From a virus (taxonomy: Duplodnaviria; Heunggongvirae; Uroviricota; Caudoviricetes): a stretch of 14,054 bases of DNA. The notes under the pieces are model-generated. The model was not told the DNA's origin, searched no databases, and worked only from the letters and a program-made list of their open reading frames with translations. A program made the position numbers and the translations under genes. Shown here one piece after another: positions 2,255 through 14,018 of the stretch (position 1 is its first letter; every line of letters begins with the position of its first letter). The stretch is from IMG/VR virus record IMGVR_UViG_3300028988_000038, one strand, 5' to 3'.

Positions 2255-3424
2255 TCACGTCTTAATAGTTTCTGCTACGTCGGCTAATATCGCTTCTAGT
2301 CGTTCTCCCTCTTCAGGTCTGAAGTAAAGAATGTTGGGGTTAAACCCGTAAAAGACAGTAACGTCAAGGTCTGGAAGATACTCCTTCCTGCCGACCAAAT
2401 CGGATGGCTTGTTTTTGTTGTTAAACAATGAAGTTGCCCGGCTGCCACACGTCAGCACATAGGTCGGACGCACCAGATTGATCTCTTCACGCATAAAGTC
2501 GGTGAACTGGCCGATCTCGTCTTTGGTGTAGTCTTTTTCTTTGTCTTTAACCTTCTTGCAAACACCTGTGACATAGAGATCGCCCATGCGTAAATCTCCA
2601 GCCGTCAATAGCTTGGCCTTAAAGTCGTCGTATCCGTTCTCCATAAAGTAACCGGTTCGAGCATCATTGCCGTTCGCATTGTCCAGAATGATCATGATTT
2701 TCGGCTTAATACCAATGCTGGGGCGGATTAGTTCATCACCTAAGCCCATTTCAGCCGCCATCCGCGTCATGAGTACGTTAATTTCAGCCGAACGTTTGGG
2801 GTTCATCTCAAACGGACGTGAGGCTTTAACTGCGTCTATGACAAGGTTTCCCATCAATTCAGCCTGGTCGCGTAGGCGCTCTGGATCAGTTGCTGGCAGA
2901 CTGCCTGGCTCGATGGATGCAAACGCCCCTACTTTTTGCAGCGATTCGCGCACTCGACTATTACAGGCACGTTTCTCGACAGCTTCTTCGAATTGCGCCA
3001 GTGACTCGAATTTGCCGCCAACTTTTTCTCGCGCTCTCATGATGGCTTGGCAGCCATTCTCAGAACACCCCTTCACAGCAGAGAAGGGCGCATACAGCAC
3101 CTGGCTGCCATCTTCAAGCGTGCGGATCTCGATTCGGTTAGATGACACGTTAACGTCTGGTGGCAATACGCGAATGCCATAGGTCAGCGCATCTTTAACC
3201 AGCCCCTGGTGTTTATCTTCGCCAAGAATAGTGAGAGCAGCAGCGAAAAACTCTGCGGGATAATGAGTTTTCAACCACATAGATTGATAACTGATTAAGG
3301 AGTAAGCAACAGAGTGTGATTTGTTGAAGGCATACGCGCCGGATTTCTCAAACATATTCCAGATTTCTTCGGCTCGTTCGTGCGTCAGGCCATTGCTCTC
3401 TTCGACAACACCGGTAATTTTCAT
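2255..3424 (-). CDS. dnaE: DNA polymerase III alpha (DnaE family), C-terminal fragment with a degenerate UDG-like C-terminal domain
   Basis: [35 protein letters not shown] matches the DnaE motif [40 protein letters not shown] matches GLKILPPDIN. QAELMG (2849-2866) sits where the internal beta-clamp motif QADMF lies. Residues about 241-389 (2258-2704) follow a family-4 UDG pattern with altered catalytic motifs. Own SD GAGGTG (3430-3435) and ATG at 3422-3424. Confidence 0.8.
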   Translation of the reverse strand: [389 protein letters not shown]

Positions 3425-4155
3425 GCAGTCACCTCATCAATCTTCACGAACTCATACCCATTGGAGGCCAGCCAGTTCCGTTGGCGCTCCCAGCTCCATA
3501 TCTCTTCACGCATTTCACTATGCAGGCGAATGTGGGCGTCTTCTGGAAGTGCTACAAGATTCCCAGGGGCGTTATCTATCGTATCGCGGTTAATATGGTG
3601 GACATGTTCATCGTCACGTAGCTCCCGACCGAGACGTTCTTTCGCTATCAATCGATGAACGTATTCGTATTGCGAAACGCCATTGTTACCAACCAGCTGC
3701 ATCATGTAGCCGTTGGTTTTTACGATGATGCCACCTTTGTAGTTGTTCGCTTCTTCTCCGATCTTTCCGCGTTTGGCAGCCGCCAGCTTTTCCTTCGTCT
3801 CCGCGCGGATTGTTCTGCCGGTTAGCTTTTTCGAAACGGTGGCCACTCGCTCATCGATATCAGCACGCAGACCGGCATTCCACGAGGTTTTCCCATACAT
3901 AGGGTTGCCAGTGCCAGTCCGGGCTTCGGAGAGACGCTTCATACGTTCGTCATTATTTTTGTTTTTGCCACGATTCCAGGCTGGGGTAGCGGAGATCCGC
4001 GCGCTTCCGCGCCTGATCCCCCATTTGGCTAATAAGCGGTCAATATTTGCCTTGCTGCAACCAGCTTCGGCGGCAATGTCTTCTTTTCTCATCAGGTCAA
4101 CCATGTAACGCTGACGTAACCATTCTTCTGTGATTTTGTACTTCGTACTCGGCAT
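3421..4155 (-). CDS. HNH homing endonuclease with N-terminal HTH and NUMOD-like repeats
   Basis: C-terminal HNH motif EHVHHINRDTIDNAPGNLVALPEDAHIRLH. GNPMYGKTSWNAGL and basic repeats resemble the NUMOD-type DNA-binding modules of phage homing endonucleases. N-terminal HTH-like segment DIAAEAGCSKANIDRLLAKWGI. Sits between the two DnaE fragments; its stop overlaps the DnaE-C start (ATGA at 3421-3424). Confidence 0.8.
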   Translation of the reverse strand: MPSTKYKITEEWLRQRYMVDLMRKEDIAAEAGCSKANIDRLLAKWGIRRGSARISATPAWNRGKNKNNDERMKRLSEARTGTGNPMYGKTSWNAGLRADIDERVATVSKKLTGRTIRAETKEKLAAAKRGKIGEEANNYKGGIIVKTNGYMMQLVGNNGVSQYEYVHRLIAKERLGRELRDDEHVHHINRDTIDNAPGNLVALPEDAHIRLHSEMREEIWSWERQRNWLASNGYEFVKIDEVTA

Positions 4156-4203
4156 TTCTAAGACTCACTAAACAAATTGTTTTCTTATCTTATAAATTAA
4201 TTC

Positions 4204-6567
4204 TCAAATATCGAAGCTCGTTATGTCGGCATTTATTGCCATTGCTTCGGCATAAGTGCGACGCTCACCATCAGCACAAAGTAGGCGTGCTGCTTTATGG
4301 ATTTTTCTCGTAGAACCATCATCCAGTGACACTGTCACCCAGCCTTCCTCCGCTCGCTTAATGAAGTCGCCGCCAATGGATTTCATTTTCTCCATATCTT
4401 TTTTCCCGATCGCTTTCCTGACCGAGTCTGCTTCCGCCATTGAGAACCCCGCCAAGATTCGCGTAGCAGCCATGATCTGTTCCTGATAAATCAGAACTCC
4501 GTTTGTGTCGCGAGAGATGTCGTCCAGCATTGGGTGTAAGGAATGTGGGGCCATGAAGCCTTTGGCCACGGACACATAATCGTCCAACATGCCGGATTGA
4601 ATCGGGCCAGGTCGGAAGAGCGCAGTTGTAGCGACGACCGTTTTAAAGCTCATTGGCTCAATTCCACCACCTAAATCTTTAAGCAGCTTGCGCATTGGGC
4701 CTGATTCAAGCTGGAATACGCCCTGTGTATACCCTGCAGCAAAACCATCCAGCACCTTGCGATCTTCAAGAGAAATGGCATCAAGATTGATATCTTCACC
4801 TGTGTTCTCTTTTATGTAGCGTTTTGCACTATCGAGCAAATCGAGAGTTGCCAGGCCAAGCACGTCCAGCTTAATTAGGCCCATAGCCTCGCAGTAACGC
4901 TTGTCAAATGCGATACAACGCGCGTCACCACGGCGTTCAACCGGTGTACGTTCTGTCAGAGGAACACCTGCTACGATCATCCCTGCCGCATGTCTACCAA
5001 AGCCACGCATAAGGCTTTGTAACTTGCAGGCTGCATTGAATGCATCAGGATATTTTGTTGCGTATTTGTCGAGACTTGCCAGTTGTTCGCGCAGCTCTTC
5101 CAATGGAAGGCTATCATCCTCGACGTTCTTCAGTTCTTTTGATACCGCCATATCTGCGGACTCCACACCATAAATACGAGCGGTGTCACGTAGTGCAGAG
5201 GCTGCGCCCAGGTAGGTGAAGTTCGGAATGCCTGCAACGTAATCTTCGCCGTAGCGTTCATTCAGATACTCGATCACCTCATGGCGACGTGCCTGGCTGA
5301 AGTCCAAGTCCGCATCCGGCAAGTCGAGACGCTCAGGGTTGATGAAACGCTCAAACAGAAGACCGTGACGGATTGGGTCGACGTTGGTTATGCCTATGCA
5401 CCACGCCACCAGAGAACCGGCAGAGGAACCACGACCAGGCCCGACAGGAATGCCAGTTTCACGGCTGTGATTCATCAGATCGCGTACCATCAGGAAGTAA
5501 CCACAAAATCCCAGGCGAGTAAGCGTGTCCATTTCGTACTTAAGTCGCTCAACATAAACCCTGTTCTCAGAAGCAGGTGGTGTGTATCCAAACTCTTTTG
5601 TGGTAAGACGTTTACGCAGCCCTGCAACAGCCAGTTTCATCAGCGTTGCAGGTTCGTCGTCTGCCATCTTGGGCAGTGCTGGTGGCAATTCATGCCAGCG
5701 CCATGTGCAGGCATCGATAATGGAGTCCTGCGTTGTTGAGGCCATTGCAGCTGTTACCGGCACATCCATGCGAACGGAGAAGGCTTTAAGCGCCTCAAGG
5801 AGATGGCGACGACCATTGATGGCGTTATCTCGCTGGTGGGGGATACGCAGACGATGCGGCTGGTCGATTTTTATGTTGTTCGTAACCATGTGCGCAATGT
5901 CTTTAATGTCTGCATCGTCGATCGATTCGTAATAAGCGGGATAGAACGCTACTGGCTCTATTTTCAGTGCGCTGGCGACTTTCATCGCCCGGACGTTAAT
6001 CTGGTCGTAGAATGGGGTAGGGTGCGGATAAACCACACTATAGAAGTTGTCTTTTCCACCCGCTGTAATCAGTGTGCTTATGATTTTTGCAAAATCGTTG
6101 CGTTGGAACACGCTACCGATGTCGGAAGTAAGCAGGATGATGTTGCCTTTGGCATATGTAGAAACCAACTGTTCGAGCGAGAGACGCGGTACAAAGTAGA
6201 ACTGTTCTCGTGTGTTGGCCGCCGTCATTAGTTCGCAGATGTCGCGATATCCTTTCTCATTTTTAATTAGAGCGGTAAACGAGTAGTTACGTCCTCGCTC
6301 TAATGATTCCATACATCTCATAGATTCTTTAGCAAGTTTAGCCCGGTGCTCGTATGTGGGATCATCAACAATGTTTAGTTTCACACCACAAATAACCGCC
6401 ATGTCGTCACCAGCGGCACGTTGTAGTGGAATAACGCTCGCAATATTCATGCTATCTGCTGAAATTACAGCGGTGTAGCCAGCTTCTCTGGCAATCTTCA
6501 CCGCGTTTTCTGCTTTTAGAGCCGACTCCCCAAGTGAGAAGTCAGTTCGAACCATCAGTGCCTTCAT
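4204..6567 (-). CDS. dnaE: DNA polymerase III alpha (DnaE family), N-terminal fragment (PHP-like, palm/thumb and part of fingers)
   Basis: [68 protein letters not shown] matches the DnaE active-site region GYFLIV...[18 protein letters not shown]...[35 protein letters not shown] and [30 protein letters not shown] also match. The ORF ends with a 45-aa tail (4207-4341) that has no DnaE homology. Confidence 0.85.
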   Translation of the reverse strand: [787 protein letters not shown]

Positions 6568-6668
6568 GTGTTTTTACCTTTCTGGTTTTTTTGATTTTGT
6601 CATTGGGGAAGCCTACGAACTTCCCATGCATCGAAATCGCAACTTCTTTTGCTGATTGGTGACAATCG

Positions 6669-6695
6669 GGCTTGTCTGGACACACCAGACAAGCC
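6669..6695. repeat. Inverted repeat / hairpin in the CobS-DnaE intergenic region
   Basis: GGCTTGTCTGG (6669-6679) and CCAGACAAGCC (6685-6695), an 11-bp perfect stem with a 5-nt loop, inside a 180-bp spacer in an otherwise tightly packed operon. Confidence 0.5.
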
Positions 6696-6747
6696 TTACC
6701 TGTTTCAGAAGCAGCGATAAGAGAGCCGAAACATCCTTTACGCACGA

Positions 6748-7983
6748 TTAACCAAATATTTTTTGAACAACTTCACGAGCCGCTTGTGCAGAAGCTGAAG
6801 GGAGTTTGTTAATGAAAGAACGCTCAATACCTGTCACAAAGTCGCCTCGCATCATTCCAATCTTGGCTGACAACAAAAGTTCACGAGGGCCAATTGGCTG
6901 ACTAATAAGGTGTTCTTCGTATCCATCGCGAACGATACCGGCAAACTTAACCATCTTTTCAGCGTATTCATCCACGATGCCTGCATTTGTCAACATGTTG
7001 ATCTCTGCGTCTTTGCTCATGTATTTCACATTCGAAACGATGCCAAAACGCGAAAAGTTCGCGGCGTTCTGGATGTTTGTACCCTGGTACAAGCCGGTTT
7101 CATCACCAGATCCGTTCGTGTTGCCAGTGCCAATGAAAGCAAACCGTTCATGCGGAGTAATGCGACGCCATTCTGGAGTTGCCTCTTTGATGACCAACGC
7201 TTCACCTTCCAGCACTGGCTGATACACGCCAAGAATTTGTGGAAACGCAAAGTCGTATTCATCCGCGAGGTAAACCCAGCCATGCTTCATTGCGAGCGCA
7301 AGCAAGCCAGGTTCGAAATACGTAGAGCCATCACGCGCCAGAATTTGCCCCGTAACATGTGCCTCTTCCATTGATGCTGTATGTTGGGCACGGATCAACG
7401 GACGATTGAGCAAAGCACATAGCTGTGTAGGCAATGACGATTTGCCTGTTCCTGCATGACCCCACAAATAGCCAGGTATGCCAAGTTCAAGCATCATGAA
7501 AATATCTTTGATCAGTTCGAAGTCGCCATATACGTAGCCCTTCTTCACTTCTGGAACGAACTCTGGATACGGCGTATTGACGTTGACGCTAACCATGAGC
7601 GGCGTCCCACGTTTTGTTCCGAGTTCTTCCACCGTTACGTTTAGCAGTTCGTGAGCTGCGACCAGATCTGTCTTGTACTCAACTGTGCCTGTGTAGCCAG
7701 GGCTACTGGTCAAGACAGAAGATTTGGCCATTTCGCTTTTTTGCTCGGCACGTTTAGCTTGAATTGCATCAAGTGCCTTTTTCGATAGCGTTGGTTCATC
7801 TGGAAACTGCGTTGTGTACATTTTCAGTACGGTGTCAGGATCGGCATCTTTTACTGACTCAGGAATGCCCTCGCAATTACCATTGGCTACATGGGACTTA
7901 AAATAGTGAAATGATTTGCCGCACCACTTGCAAACAAGGTAATCAGAAGGATTTTTTTCATTTTGCAGTGCAGTAGTCGTCAT
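6748..7983 (-). CDS. CobS-like / MoxR-type AAA+ ATPase (AAA_5) with an N-terminal Cys/His zinc-finger-like motif
   Basis: Walker A GHAGTGKSS (about 7435-7461), Walker B VYLADEYD, and the downstream pattern RFAFIGTGNTNGSG...NFSRFGIVSNVKY typical of CobS/MoxR ATPases. N-terminal CKWCGKSFHYFKSHVANGNC. Confidence 0.7.
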   Translation of the reverse strand: MTTTALQNEKNPSDYLVCKWCGKSFHYFKSHVANGNCEGIPESVKDADPDTVLKMYTTQFPDEPTLSKKALDAIQAKRAEQKSEMAKSSVLTSSPGYTGTVEYKTDLVAAHELLNVTVEELGTKRGTPLMVSVNVNTPYPEFVPEVKKGYVYGDFELIKDIFMMLELGIPGYLWGHAGTGKSSLPTQLCALLNRPLIRAQHTASMEEAHVTGQILARDGSTYFEPGLLALAMKHGWVYLADEYDFAFPQILGVYQPVLEGEALVIKEATPEWRRITPHERFAFIGTGNTNGSGDETGLYQGTNIQNAANFSRFGIVSNVKYMSKDAEINMLTNAGIVDEYAEKMVKFAGIVRDGYEEHLISQPIGPRELLLSAKIGMMRGDFVTGIERSFINKLPSASAQAAREVVQKIFG

Positions 7984-8078
7984 GCGTTTTTCCTTTGTTC
8001 TCTAATGAGCGTTCAACTTCTTATATAAATATATCATTATATATCGTAAGTGGTTACTTATCGTTAAGGCTGTTTTGT

Positions 8079-10187
8079 TCACTTTAAAATGATACGAGAT
8101 AGTTCAGTAACTACAGATGAACCAAGACTATCAACGCTCGTTACCAGGGCATGATTTGAGTAAAATCTCTCCGGTGCGTCAGTCATGATGCCAATTGCCA
8201 TCAAATCAATATCAGTCTGCGTTTCAATTTGCTTCGCAACTGAACGCAAATGAGCGTCAAAACCTCTCCCAACAGCCCACGGCGCGCCATCACTCAGAAC
8301 AAGCATGATCTTCCTGTCCTCCATGCGACCGGAAAATAACGATGCAAGGCTGGCTATGCTTTCACCATCCACGTTATTAAGAAGTGGGAATGTGTAGCCT
8401 ACGCACCCCATACGTGAGCGAACTTCGCGAGAATTTACCTTTTCATTCCAATTTTTGATGATAGGTAGCATTAAAGATTCAAAGCGAGAGAACTCATACT
8501 TGACAGCCTTAAGTTCTCCTGCCGCCATATGACTACCAAATGTAGTGAAGCCGGTGATAATGTTGGGAACATTTATTCGATCAAGGGCATCGGCGATGGT
8601 ATATGCACTTGCAAGAGCCAGTTTAATCGTTATACCACTCATTGAACCTGATAAATCAATCACTTGTTGAACACAGGCGTTAACGGCTTTAGATTCTTCT
8701 TTTTTACGAAACACGCGAGCATCATTCATTGCTAATCTGTAGATACTAGAACCATGAATGCGCCCCCGACGCTGGCCCGGTATAAACTGAACTCTGTTTC
8801 TGCTTGCTATTGCTCGCTCCAGGTCTTTTGCCAGCGTCGACGAAACACCTGACGAAAGATGCTTTTCAATATATTTGTCGAAGAGCTGGTTGCCTTCAGG
8901 AACGATGCGATAGCGGCTGATTGGATATCCTCCCAAATCAATATCGGAGAATGTTTTAATAAGCCGTTTGATATGGGCTTCTGCCTGATCAATCGAGCCG
9001 ATGAAGTCGTATGAGCGATTGTATGGCCTGTATTCGCTTTTCGAGCTTTCTGTTAACTCGCTTTTAATCGTTTCGGATAGAGCATCTTCTGTCATGCCTC
9101 CGACTTCATCTTCTATGCTATCCAGCTCCTCTAAAGCCTCTTCCAGACTCATTTTTGACGGAGTTGGGATATCTGAAGAGCCATCTTCTGTCGTTTTTCT
9201 TTTTTCGTGGTCAGCGGTTAATGATTCTGACGCCGCGTTATCAGAAGCATCAGAATCTGATACCTCTTTATCATTTTCTGTATCATCGAATATTGTTTCT
9301 GATGATTCAGAATTATCTGAATCATCACTGTCGCTATTATCATGTTTGTACTTACTATGTGATTCTGATTTGATAGATTTGTGATTATCTAACACTGAGG
9401 GTGTCTCATGATCTTCGTTGTCTTCATTGTTTTCTCCAGAGGCATCCGTCTGGTCAGCGTCTGAAGGATCGGAAGTTTTTCCCGGAGCTGACTCCTTACC
9501 TTTGCTTTCACTTTCAGTGTCTTTGAGGATCTTAGCTATGGTCGCAGCCACCTTTACACAATCCTCGGTGCAAGACATGTTACGCACGGCCACATCGATA
9601 CCATGTTCTTTTAATAATGAAATTGGTTTCTCAATGACAGGCCAATGTTCATCCATGAAATCTACGAACGGTGCTTGGCCATCCCAGGCTCTTACAACCG
9701 GACAGAGAAAGAAGTTTAGAAAAAGCGCGCGCTGATCTTTGCCACAATAAGCAATAGCCTCTGAAGCCTTTGGTTTAAAGACTTTTTCGATTATAAGGCG
9801 CTGAGTTGCCATCAGATTACGTCTTGTTCCGTTAAAGACCTGACCCATTTTTCGCTCGATGAACACGTCTTCTAAGGCATTCCATAGCGACCAGGAAGGA
9901 ACGCGTCCTTTTTCTCTCATTTTGTTGGACACACGAATATCGGTAAACAAAATGTGAGCAACCTCATGATCGAGAAATCCGCGCACAGCATTCATCAATG
10001 CCGGTGTTGCGTTATCCGGGATTGATGGGATGTTTACGAAAATTGGCTCTCCATCATCGTTATAGCGTACATAAGCGTCGTCCCCTCGTTCTGCAACAGG
10101 GATGTTTTTACCTGAAAGGAGAGCGACTACTCGTTTTACACTGTCACGGAAGTCCTGAACCTCTTTGATGGAACGTTTTTTAGACAT
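8079..10187 (-). CDS. CobT-like protein with a C-terminal von Willebrand factor A domain
   Basis: MIDAS motif DLSGSMSG (8634-8657) and LVLSDGAP in the C-terminal vWA-type domain. Long Ser/Asp/Glu-rich acidic linker (about 9048-9515). N-terminal domain contains HEVAH (9954-9968). Sits immediately upstream of the CobS-like ATPase, as in CobS/CobT pairs. Confidence 0.7.
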   Translation of the reverse strand: MSKKRSIKEVQDFRDSVKRVVALLSGKNIPVAERGDDAYVRYNDDGEPIFVNIPSIPDNATPALMNAVRGFLDHEVAHILFTDIRVSNKMREKGRVPSWSLWNALEDVFIERKMGQVFNGTRRNLMATQRLIIEKVFKPKASEAIAYCGKDQRALFLNFFLCPVVRAWDGQAPFVDFMDEHWPVIEKPISLLKEHGIDVAVRNMSCTEDCVKVAATIAKILKDTESESKGKESAPGKTSDPSDADQTDASGENNEDNEDHETPSVLDNHKSIKSESHSKYKHDNSDSDDSDNSESSETIFDDTENDKEVSDSDASDNAASESLTADHEKRKTTEDGSSDIPTPSKMSLEEALEELDSIEDEVGGMTEDALSETIKSELTESSKSEYRPYNRSYDFIGSIDQAEAHIKRLIKTFSDIDLGGYPISRYRIVPEGNQLFDKYIEKHLSSGVSSTLAKDLERAIASRNRVQFIPGQRRGRIHGSSIYRLAMNDARVFRKKEESKAVNACVQQVIDLSGSMSGITIKLALASAYTIADALDRINVPNIITGFTTFGSHMAAGELKAVKYEFSRFESLMLPIIKNWNEKVNSREVRSRMGCVGYTFPLLNNVDGESIASLASLFSGRMEDRKIMLVLSDGAPWAVGRGFDAHLRSVAKQIETQTDIDLMAIGIMTDAPERFYSNHALVTSVDSLGSSVVTELSRIILK

Positions 10188-10285
10188 GGCTAATCCTTTG
10201 TTATGAAAACAAATTATTTACTAGTGTGTTTAATGTAGCACTGCGCGAACAGGGAACTAAGCCATTCGCGCAGGGAGAAGAGGGG

Positions 10286-10498
10286 TTAACAGATTCTGAC
10301 GGCTAAAGACCCGGAGCCGATATTGAGAAGCGTGAAGCGTTTGTTGTTAAGTTCGAATATAAAGCCAGTTGTGTCATTCACACCAACCTGAATCTGCTCA
10401 TTCGGTAGATCGGTGAGGATGTCAGCTACACACTCATCAGCTAATTTCTGTACGTGTCCGATCTCAAGAGCGATTAGGCTGGAAATAGTGGTGTTCAT
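10286..10498 (-). CDS. Hypothetical small protein (70 aa), first ORF of the leftward operon
   Basis: ORF immediately downstream of the divergent regulatory region and co-oriented with the operon; only a weak SD; no recognisable motif. Confidence 0.35.
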   Translation of the reverse strand: MNTTISSLIALEIGHVQKLADECVADILTDLPNEQIQVGVNDTTGFIFELNNKRFTLLNIGSGSLAVRIC

Positions 10499-10681
10499 TC
10501 AATCAATCCATTCTAACTTATACTATTACTATGGTAAGGAATACTACTAAAATTTATATCAATACTGAATACATTCATATCATATGCAAGTTAATTTTCT
10601 TACCTGTTTTGGGCTAATTTTTCTCCGTGCAATGGCCTTTAACCGGTCTTTTAAGTGCCTATCGAAAAAAATGATAATAGC

Positions 10682-10709
10682 TTTACAACCCTAACCTTTG
10701 ATGTAATAT
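10682..10709 (+). promoter_or_regulatory. Candidate sigma70-type promoter for the XRE regulator gene
   Basis: -35 TTTACA (10682-10687), 16-nt spacer, -10 TAATAT (10704-10709) preceded by TG. SD AAAGG at 10743-10747 and ATG at 10756. Confidence 0.4.
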
Positions 10710-10710
10710 C

Positions 10711-10724
10711 GGTAAGCACTTACC
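10711..10724. promoter_or_regulatory. Candidate operator: 14-bp palindrome GGTAAGCACTTACC
   Basis: Perfect 6-bp inverted repeat with a 2-bp spacer directly downstream of the candidate -10, overlapping the expected transcription start. Matching half-sites GGTAAG (10533-10538) and CTTACC (10599-10604) occur in the same intergenic region. Confidence 0.4.
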
Positions 10725-10755
10725 AGAGAGAATTGAACGCGCAAAGGTTGTAACA

Positions 10756-11142
10756 ATGTCTGACAACAAGATTGAATTTATAGAAAGTCGCTATGCTGCT
10801 TTTATCGCAGGGCTGATTGAATCCTCACCTATGAGTCAGGCCCAAATAGCCAGACTTATTGGTTATAAAAATGCCAACAACCTTTCTTTAATTAAAAGTG
10901 GCAAAATTCCTTTGCCTATCGATAAGGTTCGTCCGTTGGCGCTGGCGCTGGGTATTGAGCCAAGTCGTCTTATGATGATGGTGCTGGAAGAACGCCAACC
11001 TGAACTCGCAGCATTTTTATACAAAGAAGGCACCGCTCCTCTTAACGAGGACGAAAAACAGGTTCTTGCTGCATATAACGAGCGATTCGGTAAAGAGAAA
11101 GGCGCATCACAAAAGGTTGTTGAGGCCATAAAGTCTCTATGA
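10756..11142 (+). CDS. XRE-family helix-turn-helix transcriptional regulator (phage repressor/Cro-like)
   Basis: HTH signature MSQAQIARLIGYKNANNLSLIKSGK. Divergent from the replication operon across a 257-bp AT-rich control region; its 3' end overlaps the integrase 3' end by 6 nt. Confidence 0.6.
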   Translation: MSDNKIEFIESRYAAFIAGLIESSPMSQAQIARLIGYKNANNLSLIKSGKIPLPIDKVRPLALALGIEPSRLMMMVLEERQPELAAFLYKEGTAPLNEDEKQVLAAYNERFGKEKGASQKVVEAIKSL

Positions 11143-12240
11143 AAAATTTACACGAATAAGCTCTGTTGATAGACGATCTCCCTTGAATTTGTGGTCAATT
11201 TCGTCTAAATCCGGTTGCTCTACGATTGATGCGATGTACGTCGAGAAACTTTCTAAGGCGTCTCGCATCTCGTCCATATAATCGTGCCGGTCGTAGACTC
11301 GATCTATCCCCTCAAGACTGTGGTTCATGATTTTGCGTGATACCTCCTGGCTTATGCCTAATGCTGGGAAGTAACTACGCGCAGTGCGGCGCAAGTCTCG
11401 GGGTGTAAATGGCTCAAGCTCCATCAGTTCTGGTCGTTCCAGAATACGACGTAATGCCTGGGCTATTGCCACTTTAGACATAGGAAGGTCTTTCCCGATT
11501 TTTTTATTCGAAGGCACGAGCCACTGGCTGCCTTTACCGTATTCGAACAACTCTTCAATGCATGTGCGCATTAATGAGCTTAAAGGCAGAGAATGCTCAC
11601 GGGCAGATTTGTTCCTCTTGCCTTGATTCCAAACCCCACGCTTAAGATTGAACTCACTTTTTTTAGCCCGCAGTACTTCGTCAGGTCGTCTTGCGGATAC
11701 AAGACATAGCCTGGCCGCCCATTTTGTACCAGCACACACATTGAAGTAGTCCCATATATTCCAGAACACCCATACCTCTGCGTCGGTTAGCTTCCGCTCG
11801 CGAGGTGTGGGCTTTGCGCCACCGGCAACTTTGTTAAGTGACATATCGTTTAACGGTGACACGTCGATCATCCCCTGGAAGGCGCACCAGCTGAGGAACT
11901 GCTTCATCAGAGAGAAAACGCGGCGACCCATAACAATTTTGCCATCCAGTATTAGTGGGTTGACCAGTTGGTTCACCATGAACCTATTAATATCACTTAC
12001 TTTTACATCGGCAATGTGCGGCAAAACATGTATCAAAATACAATGAACAGCGATCTCTGGCCGACGTCTTGTTATCAGCAGAGATAAGCGAGTGAATAAC
12101 ATGAATGCGTCCGAGAATCTCATGTCATTGCTGACCTGGGAGATCATAACGGCCTGCATTTGAGATGCTCTTTCGAGATACTCAATCGCCTCTTTTGAGG
12201 TGTTCTCCGCAGCGCGTGCTCTGTCAAAGCTATTTTTCAT
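11137..12240 (-). CDS. int: Tyrosine recombinase / phage integrase
   Basis: C-terminal catalytic-domain pattern: an ARRPDEVL segment aligning with the box I Arg region, PRDLRRT aligning with box II, and NHSLEGIDRVYDRHDY with the candidate catalytic Tyr. 367 aa. Confidence 0.75.
   Translation of the reverse strand: MKNSFDRARAAENTSKEAIEYLERASQMQAVMISQVSNDMRFSDAFMLFTRLSLLITRRRPEIAVHCILIHVLPHIADVKVSDINRFMVNQLVNPLILDGKIVMGRRVFSLMKQFLSWCAFQGMIDVSPLNDMSLNKVAGGAKPTPRERKLTDAEVWVFWNIWDYFNVCAGTKWAARLCLVSARRPDEVLRAKKSEFNLKRGVWNQGKRNKSAREHSLPLSSLMRTCIEELFEYGKGSQWLVPSNKKIGKDLPMSKVAIAQALRRILERPELMELEPFTPRDLRRTARSYFPALGISQEVSRKIMNHSLEGIDRVYDRHDYMDEMRDALESFSTYIASIVEQPDLDEIDHKFKGDRLSTELIRVNFS

Positions 12241-12490: not shown

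Positions 12491-14018
<1,528 letters not shown>

What the first reader, a model, noticed from the sequence alone, without database searches (positions are those of the whole stretch)
6748..10187. CobS-like AAA+ ATPase and CobT-like vWA protein pair embedded in the replication operon
Adjacent co-oriented genes encode a MoxR/CobS-type AAA+ ATPase (Walker A GHAGTGKSS, Walker B LADEYD, with an N-terminal Cys/His zinc-finger-like segment) and a 702-aa CobT-like protein with a C-terminal vWA domain (MIDAS DLSGSMSG). Genuine CobS/CobT are cobaltochelatase subunits, but here there are no cobalamin genes; the pair sits directly upstream of the polymerase inside a replication operon under XRE control. 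Phage CobS/CobT-like pairs are widely noted yet functionally unassigned. This context suggests a DNA-metabolism or chaperone role.
Basis: partly seen in the sequence, partly recalled or inferred. Interest (0 to 1): 0.6.

Follow-up and report, generated by a model that had tools for sequence, protein, structure and literature searches.

The report
Phage CobS/CobT-like ATPase–metallopeptidase gene pair
Two neighbouring genes on an E. coli phage-plasmid look like vitamin-B12 "cobalt chelatase" subunits but are more likely an ATP-driven protein-remodelling and cutting machine made together with the phage's DNA-copying enzymes; the pair is already widely catalogued, and what it acts on is still unknown.

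Summary

The window is an SSU5-like phage-plasmid of E. coli (99.9% identical to a known plasmid, 98.5% to phage Cyrano). Both proteins are in PHROGs and in more than 1000 plasmid records, so the pair itself is already known.

What I add:
- They fall far below NCBI's equivalog cut-offs for real CobS/CobT. The whole 113-kb element has no cob genes and carries a B12-independent class Ia RNR.
- The CobT-like N-domain keeps an invariant HExxH...E zinc-peptidase signature (127 of 128 diverse relatives). Three genuine CobTs lack it.
- The order CobT, CobS, small Cys4 protein, DnaE-UDG, gp32, exonuclease, RecA holds in all 11 distant loci examined (29-37% CobT-like, 35-45% CobS-like identity). The pair also sits beside replication genes in T4-like cyanophages and ICP2-like phages.
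- In the Cyrano lysogen the genes are near the detection floor while the adjacent repressor is expressed.

Best reading: a MoxR-type motor plus a vWA-metallopeptidase acting on a protein client during lytic replication, not cobalt insertion. The client is unknown. Interest is moderate.

The parts
8079..10187 (-). CobT-like protein, 702 aa: N-terminal zincin-like domain, acidic disordered linker, helical region, C-terminal vWA/MIDAS domain
   Evidence: Pfam CobT_C 3e-82 and CobT 1e-26. PHROG 1576, E 1.9e-300. Solved CobT 9uka_G, E 7e-17 with the single sequence and 6.7e-62 with a profile. TIGR01651 scores 65.7 bits against a cut-off of 759.
9513..10187 (-). Zincin-like N-domain (aa 1-225), with HEVAH at 9954-9968 and NALEDVFIER at 9852-9881
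9033..9512 (-). Acidic, serine-rich low-complexity linker (aa 226-385)
   Evidence: 31% Asp+Glu and 20% Ser. Its length varies among homologues.
8079..8720 (-). vWA domain with a complete MIDAS (DLSGSMSG at 8634-8657; LSDGAP at 8280-8297)
   Evidence: D511, S513, G514, S515, D633 and G634 are invariant across phage lineages. 128 of 128 representatives keep DxSxS.
6748..7983 (-). CobS-like MoxR-type AAA+ ATPase, 411 aa
   Evidence: AAA_5 2e-15. PHROG 249, E 1.7e-106. Solved CobS, E 1e-25. TIGR01650 scores 86.6 bits against a cut-off of 558. AF2 model pLDDT 82. Foldseek: NorQ and CbbQ hexamer subunits, TM 0.86-0.89 normalised to the target.
7891..7932 (-). CCHH zinc-knuckle-like motif, CKWCGKSFHYFKSH (aa 18-31), of the CobS-like N-extension
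   Evidence: C18 is invariant; C21, H26 and H31 are at least 90% conserved in 17 homologues. The model shows a beta-hairpin followed by a helix. The motif is absent from cyanophage, ICP2-like and genuine CobS.
7438..7461 (-). Walker A, GHAGTGKS
7252..7269 (-). Walker B, LADEYD
7078..7122 (-). CobS-type conserved loop, NTNGSGDETGLYQGT
   Evidence: Shared with genuine CobS (NTVGLGDTTGLYHGT). Low pLDDT in the model.
6542..6745 (-). 67-aa Cys4 protein. It starts 2 nt after the CobS stop and overlaps the dnaE start.
   Evidence: PHROG 6337. It corresponds to the N-terminal module (C5, C19, C22, C28 invariant) of a 165-205-aa protein that always lies directly upstream of dnaE in the wider lineage.
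10286..10498 (-). 70-aa first gene of the leftward unit
   Evidence: PHROG 2627. Conserved in position in SSU5-like contigs. Its Cyrano homologue is expressed in lysogens far above cobT.
10241..10273 (-). GC-rich RNA hairpin between the 70-aa gene and cobT; a candidate attenuator
   Evidence: MFE -24.3 kcal/mol for the 103-nt intergenic stretch containing it, z -2.97. Expression drops across this point in Cyrano.
10499..10755 (.). Divergent promoter/operator region
   Evidence: Promoter-like sites at 10537-10510 (-) and 10682-10709 (+). Palindrome GGTAAGCACTTACC at 10711-10724 and a GGTAAG half-site at 10533-10538. Not tested.
10756..11142 (+). XRE-type HTH regulator; the likely lysogeny repressor
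   Evidence: Its Cyrano homologue CYRAN_45 is annotated 'putative repressor' and listed in the paper's table of genes expressed in lysogeny and is expressed about 10-fold above cobT/cobS/dnaE. A divergent HTH gene occupies the same place in distant relatives.
2255..6567 (-). Downstream replicative polymerase: DnaE N-piece (4204-6567), HNH endonuclease insert (3421-4155), DnaE C-piece fused to a UDG-like domain (2255-3424)

Best explanation
The pair is a two-protein machine of the MoxR-AAA+/vWA type, not a cobalt chelatase.

Proposed mechanism:
- The CobS-like protein forms an ATP-hydrolysing hexameric ring.
- The CobT-like protein docks on that ring through its C-terminal region. Its vWA/MIDAS site captures an acidic residue or peptide of a client protein.
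- A zinc-metallopeptidase-like N-domain is tethered to the vWA domain by a long acidic linker and can cleave, or at least grip, the client while the motor remodels it.

When and where: the genes stay silent in the plasmid (lysogenic) state and are made with the phage's own replisome genes when the repressor is lifted. The client is therefore most probably a protein that has to be remodelled or cut for lytic DNA replication or host take-over to start.

Shown here:
- domain identities and intact catalytic and binding motifs;
- distance from true CobS/CobT;
- absence of cob genes on the element;
- conserved gene order;
- lysogenic silence in a close relative.

Inferred:
- complex formation (by analogy with the solved CobS-CobT and NorQ-NorD complexes);
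- peptidase activity;
- a protein client;
- the link to replication.
For: Identity of the motor and partner:
- The AAA+ module is CobS-type, and Walker A/B, Asn288 and Arg312/Arg367 are invariant.
- Its closest folds are the NorQ and CbbQ hexamers, which work with vWA partners.
- The vWA domain has a complete, invariant MIDAS.
- A profile of the phage family matches solved CobT over both domains, E 6.7e-62.

The peptidase signature:
- HExxH plus the downstream Glu residues are invariant in 61 sequences and present in 127 of 128 representatives.
- They are also kept in ICP2-like, roseophage and cyanophage versions.
- Three genuine CobTs lack the motif.

Not a chelatase:
- TIGR01650 and TIGR01651 score 86.6 and 65.7 bits against cut-offs of 558 and 759.
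- There is no cobN, cob or cbi gene on the 113-kb element, and its RNR is class Ia.

Context:
- CobT, CobS, Cys4 protein, DnaE-UDG, gp32, exonuclease, RecA is the order in 11 of 11 loci at 29-37% CobT-like (35-45% CobS-like) identity to the window proteins (loci) and in about 75 SSU5-like contigs.
- The pair lies between gp46/47 and gp45/44/62 in cyanophage S-TIM4, and upstream of the helicase and PolA in an ICP2-like phage.
- cobS, the Cys4 gene and dnaE are tightly packed or overlapping.
- In LF82/Cyrano, cobT, cobS and dnaE give 7.8, 6.7 and 10.1 normalised reads, against 96 for the repressor.

Prior art: Iyer et al. 2021 independently described a phage MoxR plus metallopeptidase-vWA pair (PMC7824862).
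Against: - No experiment on any phage CobS/CobT pair turned up in the library.
- The link to replication is positional only. Within the DnaE lineage the synteny could simply be inherited.
- In roseophage CRP-810 the pair is not next to a polymerase.
- Pseudomonas phage ZY21 and one representative (P0390) have lost HExxH yet keep the gene. Peptidase chemistry is therefore not always needed, and the N-domain may act mainly as a binding module, as in genuine CobT.
- No client was identified.
Confidence: 0.5

Rival explanations
1. Host take-over or counter-defence protease. The same machine targets a host protein (for example a replisome, nucleoid or defence component) for MIDAS-guided, ATP-driven unfolding and cleavage. 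It has no direct role in the phage replisome.
Against: Counter-defence genes are usually variable, whereas this pair is fixed in position across relatives down to 29-37% CobT-like (35-45% CobS-like) identity and is reported in all complete cyanomyovirus genomes then sequenced (PMC2984593). PADLOC gave no meaningful hit.
Confidence: 0.18
2. Virion-assembly chaperone and protease, as proposed by Iyer et al. 2021 for the MoxR plus metallopeptidase-vWA pair of T4-like jumbo phages, and by analogy with the MoxR-vWA pair needed for tail development in Acidianus two-tailed virus.
For: PMC7824862 makes this proposal for the same architecture.
Against: Here, and in every relative examined, the pair lies in the replication block and far from the structural genes. 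I found no virion-proteomics support.
Confidence: 0.13
3. Metal-centre maturation factor. Like NorQ/NorD, CoxD/E or the chelatases, the pair inserts or exchanges a metal in a phage metalloenzyme, such as the PHP domain of DnaE, the class Ia NrdB, or the Mre11-like metallophosphoesterase.
For: The closest folds are NorQ and CbbQ. The element encodes several metalloenzymes.
Against: This does not explain the conserved HExxH. Phage lineages with PolB or PolA rather than DnaE carry the pair too.
Confidence: 0.1
4. Genuine auxiliary cobaltochelatase subunits that couple to a host CobN and raise cobalamin supply. This is the usual annotation (Liu et al. 2021, PMC8651126).
For: Homology to CobS and CobT over the AAA+ and vWA modules, and weakly over the N-domain. 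The hypothesis is stated in the literature.
Against: - Equivalog scores are 6- to 12-fold below the cut-offs.
- The element has no cobN or other cob gene, and its RNR is B12-independent.
- E. coli has no CobN-type aerobic pathway. This is established knowledge and was not testable here.
- The phage N-domain keeps a peptidase signature that real CobT has lost.
Confidence: 0.04

Closest known systems
Phage 'cobST' gene cluster (cyanomyovirus cobS plus the adjacent 'peptidase', Vibrio phage ICP2 ORF41/42, haloarchaeal tailed viruses, SSU5/pHCM2-type phage-plasmids; PHROG 249 and PHROG 1576)
   Same: Same two families, adjacent and co-oriented. The window proteins hit PHROG 249 at E 1.7e-106 and PHROG 1576 at E 1.9e-300. 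Identical or near-identical genes occur in Cyrano, CMS-2020a, PhiR41_1 and more than 1000 plasmid records.
   Different: Nothing substantive: this is a member. Gene order is CobT then CobS here, in ICP2-like phages and in cyanophages, but CobS then CobT in roseophage CRP-810. The CCHH N-extension of CobS is confined to the DnaE-carrying lineage.
Aerobic cobaltochelatase motor CobS/CobT (PDB 9ujv, 9uka; TIGR01650/TIGR01651)
   Same: AAA+ module with the CobS-type NTxGxGDxTGLYxGT loop. vWA/MIDAS domain, acidic linker, and an N-domain recognisably homologous to the CobT N-domain.
   Different: - Scores are far below the equivalog cut-offs.
- No CobN partner is encoded on the element.
- The phage N-domain keeps HExxH...E, which genuine CobT lacks.
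- There is an extra 140-aa N-extension on CobS.
- Cellular gene order is cobS then cobT.
MoxR AAA+ / vWA chaperone pairs (NorQ-NorD, CbbQ-CbbO, RavA-ViaA)
   Same: The best structural matches of the CobS-like model are NorQ and CbbQ, TM 0.86-0.89. The shared logic is a hexameric motor plus a MIDAS adaptor that grips a client.
   Different: Those partners have no peptidase domain, and their clients are metalloenzymes or Rubisco. Sequence similarity is much lower than to CobS.
MoxR plus metallopeptidase-vWA pair of T4-like ('group 2.2') jumbo phages (Iyer et al. 2021, PMC7824862)
   Same: Same architecture as described there: a MoxR ATPase and a vWA co-chaperone fused to an N-terminal metallopeptidase. 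The cyanophage 'peptidase' aligns with the window protein at HExxH and MIDAS.
   Different: I did not retrieve the example proteins of that paper, so identity of the families is inferred. The authors proposed virion assembly, whereas the context here points to the replication block.
FtsH-type AAA+ zinc proteases (functional analogy only)
   Same: An AAA+ motor combined with an HExxH zinc peptidase.
   Different: In FtsH both activities are in one polypeptide, the AAA+ clade is different, and there is no vWA adaptor. No homology is claimed.

Membership tests
Cobaltochelatase subunit CobS (TIGR01650 equivalog) | Whole-protein score at or above the curated equivalog cut-off | tested here: not met
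   86.6 bits against a cut-off of 558.55
Cobaltochelatase subunit CobS | AAA+ module with Walker A/B and the CobS-type NTxGxGDxTGLYxGT loop | tested here: met
Cobaltochelatase subunit CobT (TIGR01651 equivalog) | Whole-protein score at or above the curated equivalog cut-off | tested here: not met
   65.7 bits against a cut-off of 759.05
Pfam CobT (PF06213) and CobT_C (PF11775) domain families | Score above the Pfam gathering thresholds | tested here: met
   94.5 bits (cut-off 26.1) and 275.9 bits (cut-off 21)
Cobaltochelatase CobNST system | A CobN large subunit and other corrin-pathway genes available in the element | tested here: not met
   None among the 130 annotated features of the 99.9%-identical plasmid pM160133_p3
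Cobaltochelatase CobNST system | A CobN large subunit in the host (E. coli) | not testable with these tools
By established knowledge E. coli lacks de novo corrin synthesis.
Cobaltochelatase CobNST system | Cobalt insertion activity | not testable with these tools
   Needs biochemistry
MoxR-clade AAA+ ATPase | AAA_5 domain and a MoxR-type fold | tested here: met
   AAA_5, E 2e-15. Foldseek to NorQ and CbbQ, E about 1e-14, TM 0.86-0.89.
vWA/MIDAS adaptor | DxSxS ... T ... D metal-ion-dependent adhesion site | tested here: met
   D511, S513, S515 and D633 are invariant
Zincin (gluzincin-type) metallopeptidase | HExxH plus a downstream Glu ligand, conserved in the family | tested here: met
   H74, E75, H78, E106 and E111 are invariant in 61 sequences. 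127 of 128 representatives keep HExxH.
Zincin (gluzincin-type) metallopeptidase | Zincin fold | tested here: inconclusive
Zincin (gluzincin-type) metallopeptidase | Zinc binding and peptide-bond hydrolysis | not testable with these tools
   Needs biochemistry
Phage cobST cluster (PHROG 249 + PHROG 1576) | Both families present, adjacent and co-oriented in a phage genome | tested here: met

The most novel reading that the evidence does not exclude
Phage CobS/CobT pairs are ATP-driven, MIDAS-targeted metalloproteases that a large class of phages (carrying DnaE-, PolB- or PolA-type polymerases) need in order to start their own DNA replication. The client would be a specific phage or host replisome protein that is cut or stripped away. 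The cellular cobaltochelatase motor CobST would then be a derivative of such a system in which the peptidase site decayed. The decades-old 'cobalamin auxiliary metabolic gene' label for cobS in marine phages would be wrong.
Probability: 0.15. Interest if true: 0.75.

Novelty: already known. Interest (0 to 1): 0.42.

Why it matters
cobS is among the most abundant "auxiliary metabolic genes" reported in marine viromes, and it is routinely read as boosting vitamin B12 supply. If the phage pair is really a protein-remodelling protease tied to replication, that ecological reading is wrong.

The E. coli phage-plasmids that carry it (Cyrano in LF82; PhiR41_1 on K-12) would make a good test system. 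They are genetically tractable, and the host is CobN-free by established knowledge, so a question open since 2005 could be settled there. These phage-plasmids are also common in clinical Enterobacteriaceae and carry resistance genes, so knowing what controls their lytic replication has practical value.

Tried and rejected
Searches that found nothing useful:
- Foldseek of the N-domain model against the PDB gave nothing significant.
- PADLOC gave only a marginal DrmE hit (E 1e-3) lying across the acidic linker. I dismissed it as a compositional match.
- Single-sequence searches of the two N-terminal regions against PDB sequences returned only chance hits.
- Six literature searches found no experiment on the function of phage CobS/CobT.

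Tools or data not available:
- The afdb50 fold library was not available.
I rebuilt it from representative-search proteins.
- A 2026 preprint on a phage-plasmid and heteroresistance is not held in the library.

Leads dropped:
- I tested whether the 67-aa ORF is a remnant of the sigma-70-like gene found after cobS in relatives. It shows no similarity to that gene and instead matches the next gene, a Cys4 protein.
- The first scan of viral contigs returned only close SSU5-like relatives. The distant neighbourhoods came from look-ups of individual homologues.
- I dropped a Burkholderia 'CobT-like' locus because the reading frames were ambiguous in high-GC DNA.
- I set aside the Xanthomonas phage JGB6 record as fragmented.
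- I did not scan genome or metagenome collections, and I did not use the third homologue search.
Full report
**What the window is.** All the genes concerned lie on the minus strand. In order of transcription they are:
- an IS3-family element (12835-14018);
- a tyrosine recombinase (11137-12240);
- a divergently transcribed XRE-type regulator (10756-11142, + strand);
- a 70-aa ORF (10286-10498);
- the CobT-like gene (8079-10187);
- the CobS-like gene (6748-7983);
- a 67-aa Cys-rich ORF (6542-6745);
- dnaE, split by an HNH endonuclease gene (4204-6567, 3421-4155, 2255-3424);
- a UvsY-like gene, a gp32-like SSB gene and a 5'-3' exonuclease gene.

The DNA is 99.9% identical to E. coli plasmid pM160133_p3. 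It is 97-99% identical to Escherichia phages CMS-2020a, Cyrano and PhiR41_1, and 75% identical to Salmonella phage SSU5. The element is therefore an SSU5-like phage-plasmid. The sister plasmid carries its own RepB initiator and ParB-family partition genes, a full set of siphovirus structural genes, class Ia NrdAB, thymidylate synthase and DfrA51. It has no cob or cbi gene.

**Check of the observation.**
- CobS-like: AAA_5 (E 2e-15), Walker A GHAGTGKS (aa 175-182), Walker B LADEYD (aa 239-244), and an N-terminal C-x2-C-x4-H-x4-H motif (aa 18-31) conserved in 17 homologues down to 44% identity.
- CobT-like: Pfam CobT (E 1e-26) and CobT_C (E 3e-82), with MIDAS DLSGSMSG at aa 511-518.
- Both match the recently solved CobS and CobT chains: 9ujv_A at E 1e-25 and 9uka_G at E 7e-17. 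With a family profile the CobT match reaches 6.7e-62 and extends into the N-domain.

**Relatives of CobS/CobT, not equivalents.** NCBI's equivalog models score the two proteins at 86.6 and 65.7 bits, against cut-offs of 558 and 759. The CobS-like protein has a 140-residue N-extension that real CobS lacks. The cellular gene order is cobS then cobT, whereas here it is cobT then cobS. The element encodes no CobN, and its ribonucleotide reductase is the B12-independent class Ia type. That removes the usual rationale for a phage "cobalamin" gene. By established knowledge E. coli has no CobN-dependent pathway; I could not test this with the tools provided.

**The main new point: a peptidase signature.** The N-terminal domain of the CobT-like protein contains HEVAH (aa 74-78), followed about 25 residues later by NALEDVFIER.
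- In an alignment of 61 family members at 29-65% identity, D73, H74, E75, H78, E106, D107 and E111 are invariant.
- A full HMMER scan of 1.8 billion representatives found 1144 clusters with this domain. Of the 128 full-length proteins among the top 150 (each under 50% identical to the others), 127 keep HExxH and all 128 keep the MIDAS serines.
- The motif is also present in the ICP2-like, roseophage and T4-like cyanophage versions.
- Genuine CobT from Sinorhizobium, Cereibacter and Pandoraea has SMALR, AFALR and AAALQ at the same aligned position.
- The AlphaFold model of the domain is confident (pLDDT 92.9, pTM 0.88). It has a helix, a three-stranded sheet, the HExxH helix and a helix carrying the Glu residues.
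- These scores are modest, Foldseek found nothing, and no Pfam peptidase model hits. I therefore rate the fold evidence as inconclusive and rest the claim on the invariant motif.

Cyanophage annotators called this gene a "peptidase". Liu et al. 2021 called that a mistake. Iyer et al. 2021 independently described a MoxR plus metallopeptidase-vWA pair in T4-like jumbo phages. The idea is therefore not new, although its application to "phage CobT" in general does not seem to be widely made.

**The motor.** The CobS-like model (pLDDT 82) superposes best on NorQ, including NorQ in complex with the NorD vWA domain, and on CbbQ. Both are MoxR hexamers that work through vWA partners. The catalytic residues are invariant. 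The conserved loop NTNGSGDETGLYQGT is shared with real CobS. The CCHH knuckle occurs only in the lineage that carries DnaE.

**Gene context.**
- In about 75 SSU5-like viral contigs the order integrase, XRE (divergent), orf70, CobT, CobS, orf67, DnaE is fixed.
- Eleven more distant loci keep the order CobT, CobS, (sigma-70-like gene), Cys4 protein, DnaE-UDG fusion, gp32, 5'-3' exonuclease, RecA. They share only 29-37% CobT-like and 35-45% CobS-like identity with the window proteins.
- These loci are uncultured Caudovirales, an Ectothiorhodospira prophage, Pseudomonas phage ZY21, Rhizobium phage RHph_N1_10 and metagenomic contigs.
- Several of them have a divergent HTH gene and an integrase upstream.
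- In lineages with other polymerases the pair again sits among replication genes. In cyanophage S-TIM4 it lies between gp47/gp46 and gp45/gp44/gp62. In the ICP2-like phage JSF27 it lies upstream of the helicase and PolA.
- In roseophage CRP-810 it is followed by denV rather than a polymerase.
- In the window, cobS, orf67 and dnaE are separated by 2 nt and then overlap by 26 nt, and both large genes have Shine-Dalgarno sequences.

**Expression.** For Cyrano (98.5% identical) the published LF82 RNA-seq table gives normalised counts of 96 for the repressor homologue, 20 for orf70, and 7.8, 6.7 and 10.1 for cobT, cobS and dnaE. The last three are near the detection floor.
- Inside macrophages orf70 rises to log2 10.8, while cobT and cobS reach only 5-6 and dnaE stays near 4.5.
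- The pair therefore belongs to a unit that is silent in lysogeny, as expected of lytic replication genes.
- Transcription from the orf70 promoter evidently does not run freely into cobT.
- A stable GC-rich hairpin lies exactly between them (10241-10273; the 103-nt intergenic stretch containing it folds at -24.3 kcal/mol, z -2.97). It lacks a U-tract.
- SSU5 itself lacks the XRE, integrase and orf70 genes.

**Mechanism.** Putting this together, I read the pair as a MoxR-type AAA+ hexamer with a vWA/MIDAS adaptor that carries a tethered zinc-peptidase domain. It would be made only in the lytic programme, together with the phage replisome, and it would act on a protein client. The most likely purpose is to remodel or cut something so that phage replication or host take-over can proceed.

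The steps that are shown and the steps that are inferred are listed under the best explanation. The weak points are:
- the absence of any experiment;
- the purely positional link to replication;
- the modest fold scores;
- two family members that have lost HExxH.

The rivals are a host-directed take-over protease, a virion-assembly chaperone (Iyer et al.), a metal-centre maturation factor, and a true chelatase motor. I rate the last as very unlikely for this element.

**Novelty and interest.** The genes, their pairing and their presence in SSU5/pHCM2-type elements are all on record. The window proteins are near-identical to database clusters with thousands of members, so the feature is already known. 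What remains open is the function. The value of this locus is that it offers a tractable system, in a host that by established knowledge has no CobN, for a question usually posed in marine phages. Interest is moderate.

Noticed in passing
window 2255-6567 (-): dnaE is split cleanly by a free-standing HNH/NUMOD3 endonuclease gene (3421-4155). The N-piece covers aa 1-781 and the C-piece aa 785-1166 of the intact 1168-aa Cyrano DnaE. Both pieces are intact ORFs. The insertion is present in only 8 of about 75 SSU5-like viral contigs.
   Followed up: partly
window 6542-6745 (-): The 67-aa ORF between cobS and dnaE is the N-terminal Cys4 module (C5, C19, C22, C28 invariant) of a 165-205-aa protein. 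That protein always lies directly upstream of dnaE in the wider phage lineage. In enterobacterial SSU5-like elements it is truncated to the module alone. PGAP does not annotate it in the sister plasmid.
   Followed up: partly
window 10241-10273 (-): A GC-rich hairpin without a U-tract lies between the 70-aa gene and cobT (z -2.97). In published RNA-seq of the related phage Cyrano, expression drops roughly 30-fold across this point. This suggests attenuation or a need for antitermination.
   Followed up: partly
window 10499-10755: The divergent promoter region contains the palindrome GGTAAGCACTTACC (10711-10724) and a further GGTAAG half-site (10533-10538) near the leftward promoter-like site. 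These are candidate operators of the XRE-type repressor.
   Followed up: no
L001 (Escherichia phage Cyrano, OV696614), 12249-15688: The Cyrano record names the CobS-like gene 'cobalamin synthetase' and the CobT-like gene 'dimethylbenzimidazole phosphoribosyltransferase'. Those are the unrelated Salmonella enzymes that happen to share the names CobS and CobT, so this is an annotation error by name transfer.
   Followed up: yes
window 12835-14018 (-): An IS3-family insertion sequence (two ORFs, 112 and 272 aa) sits at the right end of the window. The closest plasmid matches only up to position 12807, so the IS is a strain-specific insertion.
   Followed up: no
L083, L087, L089, L096 (gene directly after cobS): Many distant relatives carry a 207-227-aa sigma-70 region-2-like gene between cobS and the Cys4 gene. 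The enterobacterial SSU5-like elements lack it.
   Followed up: no
L094, L095 (Sinorhizobium, Cereibacter): Cellular cobS and cobT sit next to a DnaJ-domain gene (and, in Sinorhizobium, a bolA gene), not next to other cob genes.
   Followed up: no
L090 (Xanthomonas phage JGB6, OQ436456): The replication region of this record is broken into many short ORFs, and the CobS-like match falls under a CDS annotated as DNA polymerase III alpha. It is probably a frameshift-rich assembly.
   Followed up: no
L087 18375-20435: The RecA gene of the Ectothiorhodospira prophage relative carries an intein (Pfam Intein_splicing between two RecA_N hits).
   Followed up: no
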